Shown here piece by piece: positions 21,979-26,467 of a stretch of DNA of 64,000 bases. The position numbers and the translations under genes were made by a program. Where the stretch lies: the NCBI GenBank assembly GCA_965203555.1, contig CBDBCY010000002.1, positions 64,001-128,000 on the forward strand, in the 5' to 3' direction. This stretch comes from Acidimicrobiia bacterium. Its GTDB lineage: Bacteria > Actinomycetota > Acidimicrobiia > Spongiisociales > ZC4RG35. Under the pieces are notes generated by a model, which was not told where the DNA came from, did not search any database, and worked only from the letters and a program-made list of their open reading frames with translations. How positions within the stretch are numbered: position 1 is the stretch's first letter; every line of letters starts with the position of its first letter.

Positions 21979-22308
21979 ATGGCCCGTCCCTTCAGTGTCG
22001 ACGTGGTGTCGCCGGAGGGGACGCTCTGGTCCGGCGACGCCCAGTTCCTGGTGGCTCGCACCACCGAGGGCGAGATCGGGATCCTGGCAGGTCACGAGCC
22101 GTTGATGGCCGCATTGACGGCCGGAGCGGTGCTGATCGACCATGACGACGACCAGCGAACCACCATCGCCGTTCACGGCGGGTTCATGCAGGTGGTGGAG
22201 AACCGCGTCACCCTGCTGACCGACCGCGCCCGGATCACCGCCGGCGACCGGGCCGAGGCCATCGAGGAGGCGCGCCGACTGGCCGAAGGCGAGTCACCGG
22301 ACTTCTAA
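21979..22308 (+). CDS. atpC: ATP synthase F1 subunit epsilon
   Basis: V.VVSPEG, GEIGILAGHEP and GGF motifs; short C-terminus. Confidence 0.94.
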   Translation: MARPFSVDVVSPEGTLWSGDAQFLVARTTEGEIGILAGHEPLMAALTAGAVLIDHDDDQRTTIAVHGGFMQVVENRVTLLTDRARITAGDRAEAIEEARRLAEGESPDF

Positions 22309-22581
22309 CAGAGCCGGTTCCCAGGCGCCGAGTGCCTTCAGGTGGCCTTCGGGAGACATCGAAGCGTGAATGCTCCGGTCCGGCGGCAAGCGCCGGAACC
22401 AAGTGCGGAGGCGCCTGCGGCTCGGGTCCTTACCTGTTCGATGCTCCCTGAGGCTGCGCGTATTTGTGGGGAGCAGGGTTAGGGAGGGGGTCCTTGGTTA
22501 GGGGTCGAGGCTTCGCTGAAATAGGGTGGTGAAAACAAAGGGACTTAGATACATGGGTAGACAGACCCCGACTGTCCTTTT

Positions 22582-22603
22582 TGTCACACCTCCCTCGTAA
22601 CCT
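22582..22603 (+). promoter_or_regulatory. PafBC/RecA-NDp-like promoter (TGTCAC-N10-TAACCT), leaderless, for tnpB
   Basis: Motif spacing; ATG at 22611 is 7 nt after the -10; no SD. Confidence 0.6.
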
Positions 22604-22610
22604 TTCCTGT

Positions 22611-23918
22611 ATGCCCCGGATGACGCAGACCTTCCGCTTTCCGGCCAAGTGCTCGCCGTCTGCGCACCGTCGGCTGACGGAGATATTCGGCATGTGCTCA
22701 GAGCTCTACAACGCGGTCCTGGAGTCCTGGAAGGGCACCTACGCGTGGTGGAGAGAGCACAATCTGGAGACGCAGAAGTTCCCCAAAGAGCTCAACCAAT
22801 CCCTCTATGACCGGATGAAGATGTTCACCGATGTGCGCCGGGACCACCCCGAGTGGGGGCACCTCTCTGTCAAGGTCGGCCGGGGTGTTCTGTGCCGCTT
22901 CGACCGCACCGTCCAGGCCTTCTACAAACGCTGTGCGGAGGGGAAGAAGCCGGGGTACCCGAGGTTCAAGTCCCGCCGCCGCTGGCGCACCATCGAGGTA
23001 CCTGACGCCTCCCCGTCCATGATTATCCAGCCGAGGAGTCCCAGGAACCAGAGCGCTGTGTGGTGGCGTCTCCAGGTGAAGGGCGTTCCCCGCCTAAGGT
23101 TCCGGGACAAAGGCGACCGCCTGGCAACGGCTCTGGCAGCGGGGGCCAAACTGGCGGAGTTGCGGGTGGTTCGCACGCCCCTCCGCACGGAGATCCACGC
23201 GGTGGTGAGGCACCCTCCATGCGAGATACCCGTGAAAGAGCCCGCCAACCCGGCGGGGATCGACAGGGGGTTGAAGGTGCGCCTGGCTCTCTCGGATGGA
23301 ACCTTCATCCCTGCCCGTGAGCCCGACAGGACGGCCATCAAGCGGTCCCAGAGGAGGCTCTCCCGAGCGCAGAAGGGATCCAATGCCCGAAGGAAGAAAG
23401 CCCTCGCCCTGGCCAAGGCGCACCGCAGGGAGAAGGAACGGGCCGTCCAGGCCGACTTCCGCCTCGCCCACCACCTGGTGATCACCTACGACGGGATCGC
23501 CGTGGAGCGCCTGAACGTGGCGGCGATGCTCAGGGCCAAGAGATTCTCAAGAAAATTGTCCGACCAGCGGTGGTCGGCCCTCGACTCCATACTGGGATAC
23601 AAAGCCTGGAAAGCTGGTATCCCCTATGAGAGGGTCGACCCGAGTTACACATCCACCGACTGCTCTATCTGTGGCCATCGCCAGGCCATGCCCCTGCACC
23701 TCAGGGTGTTCTCCTGCGAGAGGTGCGGGCTGGAGTTGGACAGGGATGTGAACGCCGCACGAAACACAGGCGCCCGGGGCTTCCCGGGGTCGGGAGGGAC
23801 TTTTCCCGATGCGATGCGCAGAACAAGTCTCCGTCGTAAGACGCCCGCCCCCTCCGGGCGGCGCGGCGCAAGCGGACATCGCAGAACAGTATCCCCCGGG
23901 TCGACTCTGTCTACCTAG
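22611..23918 (+). CDS. tnpB: RNA-guided endonuclease TnpB
   Basis: LYNAVL, GYPRFKS, RuvC-I GIDRG, RuvC-II AVERL, CxxC..CxxC Zn finger, RuvC-III DRDVNAARN. Confidence 0.93.
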   Translation: MPRMTQTFRFPAKCSPSAHRRLTEIFGMCSELYNAVLESWKGTYAWWREHNLETQKFPKELNQSLYDRMKMFTDVRRDHPEWGHLSVKVGRGVLCRFDRTVQAFYKRCAEGKKPGYPRFKSRRRWRTIEVPDASPSMIIQPRSPRNQSAVWWRLQVKGVPRLRFRDKGDRLATALAAGAKLAELRVVRTPLRTEIHAVVRHPPCEIPVKEPANPAGIDRGLKVRLALSDGTFIPAREPDRTAIKRSQRRLSRAQKGSNARRKKALALAKAHRREKERAVQADFRLAHHLVITYDGIAVERLNVAAMLRAKRFSRKLSDQRWSALDSILGYKAWKAGIPYERVDPSYTSTDCSICGHRQAMPLHLRVFSCERCGLELDRDVNAARNTGARGFPGSGGTFPDAMRRTSLRRKTPAPSGRRGASGHRRTVSPGSTLST

Positions 23919-23931
23919 GTATATAAGTCCC
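23783..23931 (+). ncRNA. Candidate omega/reRNA scaffold overlapping the tnpB 3' end
   Basis: Nested helices CCCGGGG/CCCCGGG, TCGGGA/TCCCGA, TGCGATG/CATCGCA, CGTC-GTAA-GACG and CGCCC/GGGCG; boundaries inferred. Confidence 0.55.
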
Positions 23932-24391
23932 AAAACAAACGCCTATCCAGGAGGCCTCAATGCTCCCTGAGTCGGCTTTGCCCGGCGACACGATTCTGGT
24001 GGGTTGTGAAAAAACACCGCCCGCTTGGGATGGACATTGTCCCACCCCCGACGCATACTGTTCTCAGCCAAGTCGAATAAAGCGGTCCGGGTTCCCGAGC
24101 TCGCCCGGGATCGGAAGATAGCCAGATCCGTCCGGTCCTCACCGAGGCGCGGATCAAGCGAACCTGCAATGGTAAGGAGGAGGCGGGGGAGGGCACACGG
24201 TGGGGGGTTCGTAGGGTTCCACCAGTTTTCATAGTGTTGCTGTATGCTCAGCTAGTGCCGCATTTAGGGCCCATTTGGCGTTTCTCGAAGTTTCATTTGG
24301 ACCCGTGTAATCCCGCCCAAGAAATCATCACCAAAAGTCCAACGAGGACGAGCAGCCCTCCACCCAACCAAAACCGCGACGCACCACTAGG

Positions 24392-26467
24392 ATGATGCCG
24401 GTGCCTGGTCGGATCACTTACGGAGAACATACGGTGCCTGACTGTCTATTCCCGCTCGGGCGGAGGGGTGATCGACCGAAAGCGGGTGGCCGGCTGATCG
24501 GGTCCGTGGTCGCGGTGGTAATGGTATTGCTGGCGTCCGGTCTGCCCGCGGCGGCCCAGGTGGGTGGCTATCCCGATGTTGAGGGAGGGGTTCATGCCAG
24601 GTCGATCGCTGCCCTGGCTTCTGATGGTCGGGGCATCCTTGCCGGCACCGACTGTGACGGGGGTTTGTTCTGTCCTGACGATCCGCTGCTGAGATGGGTG
24701 ATGGCCGTGTGGCTGGTGCGAGCCGTTGACGGGGCGGACCCTGATCCGTCCGGGGTGTCGAGCTTCACCGATGTGAGTCCCGTTCGATGGTGGGCGCCTT
24801 ACACGAACCGGCTGGCCGATCTCGAAGTAACGAGAGGGTGCTCTGAGGACCCTCCGCGTTACTGCCCGGACCAGTCGGTGACCCGCGCTCAGATGGCAAG
24901 TTTCTTGGCCCGGGCGTTCGAGTTGCCCGGCGGGGCGCCCGGTCGGTTCTCCGACACTGCCAACAACCCACACGCGGAGAACATCGACAAGCTCGCCGCG
25001 GCAGGGATCACCGCCGGATGCGGTCAGGGGCGCTACTGTCCCGACCGGCCGGTGACCCGGGCCCAGATGGCGACGTTCCTGGCTCGTGCTCTGAAGCTCG
25101 TTCCGCTTCCCGGTGCCACGTCGCTGGCCGACGGCTACCGCCTTGCCTACTCCACGGCAGACCCCGACTACGTGGACAGCTATGGATTTGGGAACCAGAT
25201 ATGGATGGCCGGGCTGCAAGGCGGCAGGGAAGCCATAGGATCGTACAGCGGTCATGGCGGTGCTCATCCGATATTCTCACCGGACGGCAGGTGGGTCGCC
25301 TACGGGGCAAGGGACAAGGCCTATGTCATGGGCACGGATGGCCAAAACGTTCGCGAGGTCCGTTCCCGGGGCCGATGGTCCTTCAATTTCCGGTGGTCGC
25401 CCGACTCGAGATACCTGGTGTACAACACTGCTGGAGGTGCCGGAGGTTCGAACTGGATCGAGAGAAGTGATGGGCAGGACAAACGGTCCATCGGTCTTCT
25501 CTGGCGGTTCTCTCCCGATGGGAGGCTCGCTCTCTACAGTGTCTTCGATGAGGTCGACGGAGAACGGGTTTATGTCCATACTGTTGTCGAGGACCTTGAG
25601 AGTGGTGGCCAGGTCACGATCGATGTTGATGAATCCAATGCCCGATACGTGGAGTTCACGCCGGATGGCCGGAGGGTGTCCTGGATAGCGGAGAACCCCA
25701 ACGGTGTTCACCAGGATCTCTGGATAATGGACATCGACGGTAGCAACAGGGTCAAGTTACTGACGGCAGGCTTGGGTAACCTTCCAGGCTCGGCCAAGCT
25801 ACGCTGGTCGCCCGACGGTAGCCGATTCGCCTACGTTAAGGGTTATGGTATCGGAACCCAGTTCATCGTGGCGGACGCCGCCAACGGTGAGACGATCATG
25901 AACCTAGGTATCAGCAAGTGCAACTACCTTGACTGGGCACCGGATAGCGCACATCTGGTTTCTGACAACCGTGAAGGGTTCGTGTTCAACACGCTCACCG
26001 GGGACACGATAAGGCAGCGGGATCTCTACACGGGAGACCCGAGATACGGTCGGATTCTGAATGTCCGATGGTCGCCGGACAATCAGTCCTTTGCCTACAT
26101 TCTGGAAGAAGAAGACCCCAACAGTCCCGTCCTACCCTCCGATATCTTTGAAGAAGTATCCGACATTTCCAGAGAGTTATGGACCGATCCATATTTCCCC
26201 GTTTCTACACAACTATGGATTGCGGACGCTGATGGAAAGAACAAGAGGAAACTGGTCGACAATGTAGGATACGACTTTCGTTGGTCACCCGACGGCAAAC
26301 GTATAGCCTACTCGACTCTGTCCCCCATCAGATTCGACGAAGCCGGACCCCTACCGCGCTCTGCATCCGCGCTATGGATCACGGATAGCGACGGCAGTAA
26401 CCAATGGAGTGTTGTTGCCCAACCTGAATACGGCCGAATCACCCTCTTAGGTTGGCTACCAAGCTGA
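24392..26467 (+). CDS. Secreted SLH-domain protein with TolB/PD40-like beta-propeller (start uncertain)
   Basis: Signal peptide ending PAAA; three SLH repeats (YCPD..VTRAQMA.FLARA); many WSPDG repeats. Confidence 0.85.
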   Translation: MMPVPGRITYGEHTVPDCLFPLGRRGDRPKAGGRLIGSVVAVVMVLLASGLPAAAQVGGYPDVEGGVHARSIAALASDGRGILAGTDCDGGLFCPDDPLLRWVMAVWLVRAVDGADPDPSGVSSFTDVSPVRWWAPYTNRLADLEVTRGCSEDPPRYCPDQSVTRAQMASFLARAFELPGGAPGRFSDTANNPHAENIDKLAAAGITAGCGQGRYCPDRPVTRAQMATFLARALKLVPLPGATSLADGYRLAYSTADPDYVDSYGFGNQIWMAGLQGGREAIGSYSGHGGAHPIFSPDGRWVAYGARDKAYVMGTDGQNVREVRSRGRWSFNFRWSPDSRYLVYNTAGGAGGSNWIERSDGQDKRSIGLLWRFSPDGRLALYSVFDEVDGERVYVHTVVEDLESGGQVTIDVDESNARYVEFTPDGRRVSWIAENPNGVHQDLWIMDIDGSNRVKLLTAGLGNLPGSAKLRWSPDGSRFAYVKGYGIGTQFIVADAANGETIMNLGISKCNYLDWAPDSAHLVSDNREGFVFNTLTGDTIRQRDLYTGDPRYGRILNVRWSPDNQSFAYILEEEDPNSPVLPSDIFEEVSDISRELWTDPYFPVSTQLWIADADGKNKRKLVDNVGYDFRWSPDGKRIAYSTLSPIRFDEAGPLPRSASALWITDSDGSNQWSVVAQPEYGRITLLGWLPS

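What the first reader, a model, noticed from the sequence alone, without database searches (positions are those of the whole stretch)
22532..23939. TnpB carried inside a TIR + 8-bp TSD element (DDE/IS1595-like ends) instead of an IS200/IS605 or IS607 context
Seen: the left end GGGACTTAGATACATGGGTAGACAGA (22540-22565) and the reverse complement of the right end GGGACTTATATACCTAGGTAGACAGA (23906-23931) match at 23/26 positions. AAAACAAA flanks both ends directly. The only gene inside is tnpB, with all three RuvC acidic motifs and the Zn finger intact, and its stop codon lies inside the right TIR. There is no TnpA. Known: Y1 (IS200/IS605) and serine (IS607) elements that normally carry TnpB have no TIRs and make no TSD. 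Short TIRs with 8-bp AT-rich TSDs and passenger-only derivatives are typical of IS1595-family DDE elements. Inference: an RNA-guided nuclease captured by a DDE transposon family and moved in trans, a prokaryotic parallel to Fanzors in TIR transposons. I cannot confirm from sequence alone that this is undescribed.
Basis: partly seen in the sequence, partly recalled or inferred. Interest (0 to 1): 0.9.

Follow-up and report, generated by a model that had tools for sequence, protein, structure and literature searches.

The report
TnpB riding an IS1595-type transposon
This is a small, non-autonomous IS1595-family transposon, with inverted-repeat ends and an 8-bp target duplication, that carries only a TnpB RNA-guided nuclease and its guide-RNA region; it is one copy of a multi-copy family in Acidimicrobiia and adds a DDE-transposon partner to those the papers I could read name for bacterial TnpB.

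Summary
Window 22540-23931 is a 1392-bp element with 23/26 inverted ends and AAAACAAA on both sides. It holds one intact tnpB.

Across eight other Acidimicrobiia genomes plus this one I found 35 tnpB-type insertions with the same ends. Of these, 23 have a perfect 8-bp duplication that differs from site to site, and two copies are 100% identical at different sites.

Uninterrupted paralogues of the target in the same genome carry a single AT-rich 9-mer where the element sits.

Elements with matching ends and 8-bp duplications encode a real IS1595 transposase (zinc ribbon plus DDE domain). Six of six such elements with both ends found have perfect duplications. None carries tnpB, and no tnpB element carries a transposase, so movement in trans is the best reading.

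The last ~208 nt form a conserved, covarying RNA that ends exactly at the element's last base, so the right repeat is also the RNA's 3' end.

A G lies just 5' of the left duplication in 26 of 27 sites. It may be a target-adjacent motif.

Against this reading, the window's genome and the most tnpB-rich genomes lack the transposase.

DDE-linked TnpBs with inverted ends were described in 2023, so the idea is not new. IS1595 is not named in the text I could read.

The parts
22449..22531 (+). Left part of a ~115-bp host repeat into which the element inserted. The right part is 23940-23962.
   Evidence: at least 8 uninterrupted paralogues on G000 contig C4 run straight through, with one AT-rich 9-mer between GGTGGTG and CGCCTA.
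22532..22539 (.). Left copy of the 8-bp target-site duplication, AAAACAAA. It is preceded by G at 22531.
   Evidence: Family-wide the duplication is 8/8 in 23 of 35 insertions, and a G at -1 occurs in 26 of 27 sites with a duplication of 7/8 or better.
22540..22565 (+). Left terminal inverted repeat (GGGACTTAGATACATGGGTAGACAGA)
   Evidence: repeat I1. The same consensus ends all sibling copies.
22560..22590 (+). Sub-terminal hairpin followed by a T run (terminator-like, 22560-22585), then the conserved TTGTCACACC motif (22581-22590), a possible -35-like box for tnpB.
   Evidence: consensus scan only. One search shows the motif in nearly all left ends. The function is inferred.
22611..23918 (+). 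tnpB (RNA-guided RuvC nuclease). ATG at 22611 or 22620; stop TAG at 23916-23918 inside the right repeat.
23724..23931 (+). Candidate omega (guide-scaffold) RNA. It overlaps the 3' end of tnpB and ends at the last base of the element.
   Evidence: Alignment A1 of 24 right ends. On the consensus structure, 93.3% of cells pair against 31-53% when partners are slid, 7 pairs show compensatory changes, and 0 of 500 shuffles reach the observed score. Sequence conservation stops exactly at GTCCC.
23886..23931 (+). Terminal stem-loop of the candidate RNA. Its 3' arm is the inner part of the right repeat. The last 7 nt, AAGUCCC, are unpaired.
   Evidence: 16 of 20 distinct ends show the same closing helix. 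Different Watson-Crick pair types occur at repeat positions 13-17 and 20-22. The window's own fold is not better than shuffles (z = +0.07).
23906..23931 (-). Right terminal inverted repeat
   Evidence: repeat I1.
23932..23939 (.). Right copy of the 8-bp target-site duplication
23932..23951 (+). Predicted guide segment of the RNA: the duplication plus about 12 nt of flank.
   Evidence: Inference only, by analogy with IS200/IS605 TnpB, where the scaffold ends at the element boundary (PMC10711439, passage). No RNA ends were observed.

Best explanation
The element at 22540-23931 is a non-autonomous member of an IS1595-family transposon lineage. Its ends begin GGGAMTTATATA and it makes an 8-bp duplication of an AT-rich target. 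Its only cargo is a TnpB nuclease gene plus the region for its guide-scaffold (omega) RNA.

Shown: the repeats, the duplication, the multi-copy family with site-specific duplications, the uninterrupted paralogous targets, autonomous IS1595 elements with matching ends, and the conserved covarying RNA that ends at the element boundary.

Inferred: an IS1595 DDE transposase supplied in trans binds the repeats and inserts the element with an 8-bp staggered cut. The RNA is transcribed through the right repeat into the flank, so its guide begins with the duplicated 8 nt. TnpB then cuts an allele that has lost or never had the element. In such an allele the same sequence is preceded by the left flank ending in G, instead of the repeat ending in C. 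Recombination with an occupied copy would then restore the element.

In the window's genome the copy is probably stranded, because no transposase was found there.
For: The repeats and the duplication are.

Sibling copies occur in 6 of 16 other genomes of the genus and in 0 of 44 genomes of other genera sampled. They also occur in two further Acidimicrobiia MAGs.

There are 35 insertions with both ends; the duplication is 8/8 in 23 and 7/8 in 4. Two copies in G002 are 100% identical over 1468 bp yet sit at different sites with different duplications. Copies with a frameshifted tnpB have also moved (L073 and L078, 98.7% identical).

Paralogous empty targets are shown.

Autonomous elements carry Zn_ribbon_IS1595 plus DDE_Tnp_IS1595 (Pfam 1.8e-37 and 1.5e-40; NCBIfam IS1595 178-183 bits against a cut-off of 75). 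They have the same terminal sequence. All 6 of 6 elements with both ends found have a perfect 8-bp duplication: L042, L055, L213, L218, L221 and L222.

The inner-repeat types of tnpB elements each have a transposase-bearing counterpart. L055 and L057 match the window's type, L054 matches the L016/L020 type, L223 matches the L079 type, and L042 matches L234. One genome, G061, holds both an intact transposase element (L213) and tnpB elements.

The family definition (8-bp duplications, zinc finger plus DDE domain, ends starting GG in the related Merlin elements) comes from PMC8101967 (passage).

As a control, 0 of 80 distant metagenomic TnpB loci have these ends together with a duplication.
Against: No IS1595 transposase was found in the window's genome with the protein query, and only a sub-threshold 21.7-bit fragment with PF12762. 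None was found in G003, G005 or G012, and only fragments in G002 and G004. Yet G003 and G012 are the genomes richest in tnpB copies. These genomes are 92-96% complete, so absence is not proven.

No element examined holds both genes: 0 of 35 tnpB elements and 0 of 6 complete autonomous elements.

For some co-resident pairs the ends agree well only over the terminal ~13 nt, for example L213 against L079.

No transposition, RNA or cleavage was observed. The only RNA-library evidence is one assembled contig of a sibling copy, which does not prove transcription.

The terminal hairpin of the window's own copy is no more stable than shuffled sequence (z = +0.07). Across the family, z is -2 or lower in 11 of 20 ends.
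Confidence: 0.8

Rival explanations
1. The element is a repeat-and-duplication transposon, but it is moved by a different, unidentified transposase, not by the IS1595 enzymes found in related genomes.
For: The genomes with most copies lack a detectable IS1595 transposase: G003 and G012 have none, G004 only a fragment, and G000 none. Even so, near-identical copies (96-99.6%) exist in G012, and two 100% identical copies exist in G002, which has only a transposase fragment.
Against: The 8-bp duplication, the GG-start ends and the AT-rich targets fit IS1595. Transposase-bearing elements share not only the terminal 13 nt but, type by type, the inner repeat too. Non-autonomous elements commonly outlive their transposase. 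MAGs omit plasmids and phages that could supply the enzyme.
Confidence: 0.1
2. It is an ordinary IS200/IS605 (IS1341-type) tnpB-only element, and its inverted ends and flanking 8-mer are chance or are the usual sub-terminal hairpins.
For: tnpB-only elements are classed there. The TnpB is a typical family member (NF040570 at 181 bits; best natural solved relative ISDra2 TnpB at 3e-17).
Against: That family has no terminal inverted repeats and makes no duplications (review PMC13565253, passage). Here 23 of 35 insertions carry perfect 8-bp duplications that differ by site. No constant 4-5-nt motif abuts the left end. No Y1 transposase was found in 5 genomes.
Confidence: 0.02
3. The TnpB is domesticated, for example as an RNA-guided regulator, and the repeats are relics with no current mobility role.
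For: There is a single full copy in this genome and no transposase.
Against: The catalytic D-E-D and the zinc finger are intact. The position is not conserved: no orthologous copy lies downstream of atpC in the 16 genus genomes, where homology stops about 230 bp before the element. Siblings are multi-copy and recently moved.
Confidence: 0.03

Closest known systems
DDE-transposase-associated TnpB branches (DDE-1 to DDE-6) of Altae-Tran et al. 2023, PNAS (PMC10691335)
   Same: A prokaryotic TnpB inside a transposon with inverted terminal repeats. The tnpB 3' end lies within 250 bp of the element end. Solo TnpBs carry the same ends as transposase-bearing elements, so they are taken to move in trans (passages).
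   Different: The partners named in the text I could read are IS630 in that paper, and ISL2, IS630 and IS1031 in the 2026 review PMC13565253. 'IS1595' occurs 0 times in the PNAS main text.

Here the two genes were never found in one element. The duplication is a variable 8-mer that would become the start of the guide. I could not tell whether this clade lies inside one of their branches, because the supplements were closed.
IS1595 family insertion sequences. Subgroup ISNwi1, with passenger-carrying derivatives, is recalled from memory and was not tested.
   Same: 8-bp duplications, ends starting GG, and a transposase with an N-terminal zinc ribbon and a DDE_Tnp_IS1595 domain in the autonomous relatives (definition from PMC8101967). 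The autonomous relatives here carry a DNA methyltransferase-nuclease passenger gene.
   Different: The window element has no transposase. Its cargo is an RNA-guided nuclease whose RNA uses the right repeat as its 3' stem.
Fanzor1/Fanzor2* elements in eukaryotic cut-and-paste transposons (PMC10711439; PMC3627910)
   Same: A TnpB-type nuclease in an element with inverted repeats and duplications. The element is often non-autonomous. The repeat is predicted to be part of the guide-RNA scaffold (passage).
   Different: The host is bacterial. The protein is an ordinary-length TnpB. The duplication is long and variable, so it cannot be a fixed part of the scaffold.
IS200/IS605 IS1341-group tnpB-only elements (e.g. 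the ISDra2 TnpB system)
   Same: The same protein family, and the same layout of an RNA overlapping the tnpB 3' end and ending at the right boundary.
   Different: Those elements have no inverted repeats and no duplication, and they insert 3' of a fixed 4-5-nt motif via a Y1 transposase.

Membership tests
TnpB (RNA-guided RuvC nuclease, OMEGA system) | OrfB_IS605 / RuvC fold with the D-E-D catalytic residues and a C4 zinc finger | tested here: met
   NF040570 at 181 bits, cut-off 100; D215, E296, D376, C348, C351, C366 and C369 are invariant or nearly so.
TnpB (RNA-guided RuvC nuclease, OMEGA system) | A structured RNA overlapping the gene's 3' end and reaching the element boundary | tested here: met
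   covariation, 93.3% of cells paired, and conservation ending at the last base. This is a prediction from alignments; no RNA ends were seen.
TnpB (RNA-guided RuvC nuclease, OMEGA system) | RNA-guided, TAM-dependent DNA cleavage | not testable with these tools
   Needs a cleavage or TAM-depletion assay.
IS200/IS605 (IS1341 group) | No terminal inverted repeats and no target duplication; insertion 3' of a fixed short motif | tested here: not met
   23/26 repeats, and an 8-bp duplication that is 8/8 in 23 of 35 insertions. Definition from PMC13565253.
IS200/IS605 (IS1341 group) | A Y1 (HUH) TnpA available in the genome | tested here: not met
   PF01797 was found in 0 of 5 genomes; the control rings in 6 of 14.
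IS607 | Serine-recombinase TnpA; no inverted repeats and no duplication | tested here: not met
   The repeats and the duplication are present. I did not search for a serine recombinase gene.
IS1595 family | 8-bp target-site duplication | tested here: met
.
IS1595 family | Terminal inverted repeats beginning GG | tested here: met
   GGGAC at both ends.
IS1595 family | Transposase with Zn_ribbon_IS1595 and DDE_Tnp_IS1595 inside the element | tested here: not met
   The window element encodes only TnpB, so it is at most a non-autonomous derivative. Relatives with matching ends do encode the transposase.
IS1595 family | The ends are recognised and moved by an IS1595 transposase | not testable with these tools
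   Inferred from matching repeat types. Needs a transposition assay.
DDE-associated TnpB branches (Altae-Tran 2023) | Inverted terminal repeats, and the tnpB 3' end within 250 bp of the element end | tested here: met
   the ORF ends 8 or 16 nt before the element end in most copies.
DDE-associated TnpB branches (Altae-Tran 2023) | The TnpB clade has members next to a DDE transposase gene and falls in branch DDE-1 to DDE-6 | not testable with these tools
   Adjacency was not seen in 35 elements.

The most novel reading that the evidence does not exclude
IS1595-type transposons and TnpB form a strictly trans partnership that gene-neighbourhood surveys cannot see.

The right repeat has become the 3' stem of the guide RNA, and it co-varies with the RNA as elements switch repeat type to follow different transposases. 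The tnpB tree needs at least 9 repeat-type changes.

The variable 8-bp duplication is the first part of the guide. The single G found 5' of the left duplication (26 of 27 sites, against 2 of 6 for autonomous elements) is the nuclease's target-adjacent motif. It would let TnpB cut alleles that have lost the element while sparing the occupied junction, which has C at that position.

Two unrelated TnpB lineages (27% identity) have been recruited by this transposon family independently.
Probability: 0.3. Interest if true: 0.7.

Novelty: new variant of a known kind. Interest (0 to 1): 0.55.

Why it matters
It shows in concrete detail how a bacterial RNA-guided nuclease lives inside a cut-and-paste DDE transposon. 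A 2026 review calls this situation rare in prokaryotes and asks how the nuclease's target rule can be reconciled with target duplications.

The family offers dozens of natural insertions and matched autonomous partners. It also offers a repeat that doubles as an RNA stem, and a one-base orientation-specific target bias that can be tested directly as a TAM.

It further warns that TnpB-transposase partnerships acting only in trans will be missed by surveys that rely on neighbouring genes.

Tried and rejected
Orthologous empty site: homology to the 16 genus genomes stops about 230 bp upstream of the element. The downstream gene lies elsewhere in the closest genome. I used paralogous targets instead.

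Sequencing runs: only assembled contigs were available. No contig joins across 22540-23931, so no empty allele was seen, but contigs drop rare variants. One 259-nt contig in an RNA library covers 23776-23934 and then runs into another flank. That is a sibling copy, and it does not prove transcription.

Rfam: no family matched the element. The only hit, NiCo at 18.7 bits against a gathering score of 37, lies outside it and is noise.

I used single-sequence folds instead. These always give standard pairs by construction, so they are weaker evidence.

The metagenome scan with a TnpB alignment returned only distant TnpBs (25-42% identity), because generic motifs were chosen as search patterns. I used those loci only as a negative control.

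A viral-contig scan for the RNA-end motif found 0 matches.

Earlier findings of this scan were not open.

ISfinder could not be queried. The ISNwi1 end consensus is recalled from memory only.

tRNA scan of the repeated stretch downstream: none found.
Full report
**What is in the window.** The sequence shows a 1392-bp unit at 22540-23931. Its ends are a 26-nt inverted repeat with 23 of 26 positions matching. This is the longest inverted repeat in the 1.7 kb examined (I1). AAAACAAA abuts both ends, at 22532-22539 and at 23932-23939.

The only substantial ORF is 22581..23918 on the + strand, with likely ATG starts at 22611 or 22620. It is a TnpB. Pfam gives OrfB_IS605 and Cas12f1-like_TNB. NCBIfam guided_TnpB scores 181 bits against a cut-off of 100. 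The best natural solved relative is ISDra2 TnpB at 3e-17. The RuvC D-E-D residues and the C4 zinc finger are conserved. The stop codon TAG lies inside the right repeat.

The element sits between atpC (21979-22308) and a gene for an SLH plus beta-propeller protein (24392-26467).

**The pattern is a family, not chance.** The window's genome holds one full copy and two decayed fragments. With the protein as query, 6 of 16 other genomes of the genus hold 3 to 20 matches each. None of 44 genomes of other genera in the family or order sample matched at E <= 1e-20. Two more Acidimicrobiia MAGs, one labelled Ca. Spongiisociaceae, also carry copies.

I found 27 distinct insertions of 1.2-1.6 kb with both ends, and 8 more that include shorter derivatives, making 35 in all. 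The flanking 8-mers match 8/8 in 23 of them. One of these needs a 1-nt register shift caused by an indel in the repeat. They match 7/8 in 4 and worse in 8. The 8-mers differ from site to site.

Some poor cases show exchanged flanks: the right flank of L036 is the reverse complement of the left flank of L025. That points to recombination between copies.

L017 and L240 share flanks in two species, so they are one inherited insertion and not independent.

G002 holds two 100% identical 1468-bp copies at different sites with different perfect duplications. G012 copies are 96-99.6% identical. L073 and L078 carry the same frameshifted tnpB yet sit at different sites.

As a control, 0 of 80 distant TnpB loci from metagenomes have these ends with a duplication.

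**Empty site.** No orthologous empty site exists in the relatives. However, the element lies inside a ~115-bp repeat. At least 8 uninterrupted paralogues in the same genome read GGTGGTG, then a single AT-rich 9-mer (for example AAACAAAAA or TAAGCGAAT), then CGCCTA. This is what an insertion that duplicates the AT-rich core predicts.

**The partner.** Scanning five genomes for the repeat found same-ended elements with other contents:
- MITEs of 275 and 360 bp.
- A 3.5-kb cargo element of unknown ORFs.
- A 1.9-kb element with a 627-aa TnpB-like protein only 27% identical to the window's.
- Elements encoding a 318-337-aa protein with Zn_ribbon_IS1595 and DDE_Tnp_IS1595. NCBIfam IS1595 scores 178-183 bits against a cut-off of 75.

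All six transposase-bearing elements for which both ends were found have perfect 8-bp duplications: L042, L055, L213, L218, L221 and L222. The other transposase loci were cut by contig ends, or the partner end was not found.

Their ends begin GGGAATTATATA or GGGGATTATATA, against GGGACTTATATA in the tnpB elements. The inner parts of the repeats fall into types, and each type seen on tnpB elements also occurs on a transposase-bearing element:
- TGGGTAGACG on L055 and L057 is the window's type.
- AATAGTTGACGG on L054 matches L016 and L020.
- GTGAGTGCC on L223 matches L079.
- TAAGTGGCGA on L042 matches L234.

According to PMC8101967 (passage), IS1595 members are usually flanked by 8-bp duplications and have this two-domain transposase.

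**What speaks against a simple trans story.** The transposase was not found in the window's genome. It was also not found in G003, G005 or G012, and G002 and G004 hold only fragments. It is intact in G008, G010, G014, G016 and G061. Of these, only G008 and G061 also hold tnpB elements. It is rare in the class: 5 of 401 genomes at 1e-60.

No element holds both genes. The window copy is therefore probably stranded. The bursts in G003 and G012 need a lost, unassembled or foreign source of transposase.

**The RNA.** An alignment of 24 right ends shows strong nucleotide conservation from inside the RuvC-III coding region to the last base of the element, and none beyond it. On the consensus structure:
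- 93.3% of cells pair, against 31-53% when partners are slid by 1-3 columns.
- 7 pairs have compensatory changes; one pair shows CG, GC, AU and UA.
- 0 of 500 shuffles reach the observed covariation score.

The structure was derived from the same alignment, which favours it.

In the window this region spans about 23724-23931.

The final stem-loop uses the inner half of the right repeat as its 3' arm. 16 of 20 distinct ends fold with the same closing helix. Repeat positions 13-17 and 20-22 pair with upstream bases through different pair types in different subfamilies. Thermodynamic support is mixed: z is -2 or lower in 11 of 20 ends, and the window's own z is +0.07.

So the right repeat appears to serve both as a transposase site and as the RNA's 3' stem. 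Something similar was predicted for Fanzor elements (PMC10711439).

On a tree of 24 intact TnpBs (11 of the 35 were left out because their ORF is under 380 aa), the repeat types need 9 changes, where 5 is the minimum possible. Well-supported branches force several of these changes. Repeat types therefore seem to have been swapped between tnpB lineages.

**An orientation-specific target bias.** In tnpB orientation, the base just 5' of the left duplication is G in 26 of 27 sites with a duplication of 7/8 or better. The background frequency of G is 0.30, giving a binomial p of 6e-13. The mirror position is C in only 5 of 27.

The first three duplicated bases are A or T in 78 of 81 cells. The last three admit G (18 cells) but not C (2 cells).

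The six complete autonomous elements have G at that position in 2 of 6, taken in transposase orientation (Fisher p = 0.0017, small n). A symmetric transposase preference cannot give this pattern.

One reading is that G is the last base of the nuclease's target-adjacent motif. The guide would then start with the duplicated 8 nt. An empty allele has G before that sequence, while the occupied junction has the repeat's final C. This is inference. Gene-orientation effects or a lineage-specific transposase preference are not excluded.

**Comparison with what is known.** The review PMC13565253 (passages) states three things:
- IS200/IS605 and IS607 have no inverted repeats and make no duplications.
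- DDE association is rare in prokaryotes.

Its source, Altae-Tran et al. 2023 (PMC10691335, passages), reports six DDE branches, all with inverted terminal repeats. It also reports solo TnpBs with ends nearly identical to those of transposase-bearing systems. The principle is therefore published.

A full-text search for TnpB together with IS1595 returned 9 papers, none relevant by title or abstract. 'IS1595' occurs 0 times in the PNAS main text.

I therefore rate the finding as a new variant of a known kind. The new elements are the IS1595 partner, the strictly trans arrangement, a long variable duplication at the start of the presumed guide, a repeat co-evolving with the RNA, and a candidate one-base TAM.

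**Verdict.** Interest is moderate to good because the system is rich and directly testable.

Noticed in passing
window 22449-22531 and 23940-23962; paralogues on G000 contig C4 near 2649008, 1404300, 2917753, 2167436, 1153155, 286877, 1960386 and 303197: The tnpB element sits inside a ~115-bp repeat (GAGGCTGCGCG...CCAGGAGGCCTC). The repeat has many copies in this genome and in other genomes of the genus. In several copies it is followed by the same ATG-led sequence. In the window it is itself bracketed by a ~12-nt direct repeat, ATGCTCCCTGAG (D2). It may be a MITE or the leader of another multi-copy gene.
   Followed up: partly
window about 24169-24392: Two further short repeats, of about 150 bp and about 80 bp, lie downstream. 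They match many places in G000 and other genus genomes at 75-95% identity. They are not tRNAs.
   Followed up: partly
L041:1030-2931 (G008 contig C17): A 1.9-kb element with the same ends and a perfect 8-bp duplication (TTGCTTTA) carries a 627-aa TnpB-like protein. That protein is only 27% identical to the window's over the RuvC part and has a different 3' non-coding region. It is a second TnpB lineage in the same transposon family.
   Followed up: partly
L043:1009-4521 (G004): A 3.5-kb element with the same ends and a perfect duplication (ACAGAAAA) carries three ORFs of 640, 253 and 170 aa. None has a significant Pfam match.
   Followed up: no
L042:1209-2564 and L055:260-1612: The autonomous IS1595 elements carry a passenger gene: an N6/N4 DNA methyltransferase fused to a nuclease domain. 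The nuclease domain is Mrr_cat-like in L042 and HNH in L055.
   Followed up: no
G000 C4:375269-375611 (L002) and C4:2043386-2043543 (L003): Two decayed relics of related elements lie in the window's genome. One is a 368-bp internally deleted copy with both ends. The other is a 5' tnpB fragment with stop codons.
   Followed up: partly
window 22593>23529 and 22679>23554 (joints in runs X4 and X6): Contigs from other samples hold internally deleted derivatives of the element, skipping 935 and 874 bp.
   Followed up: no
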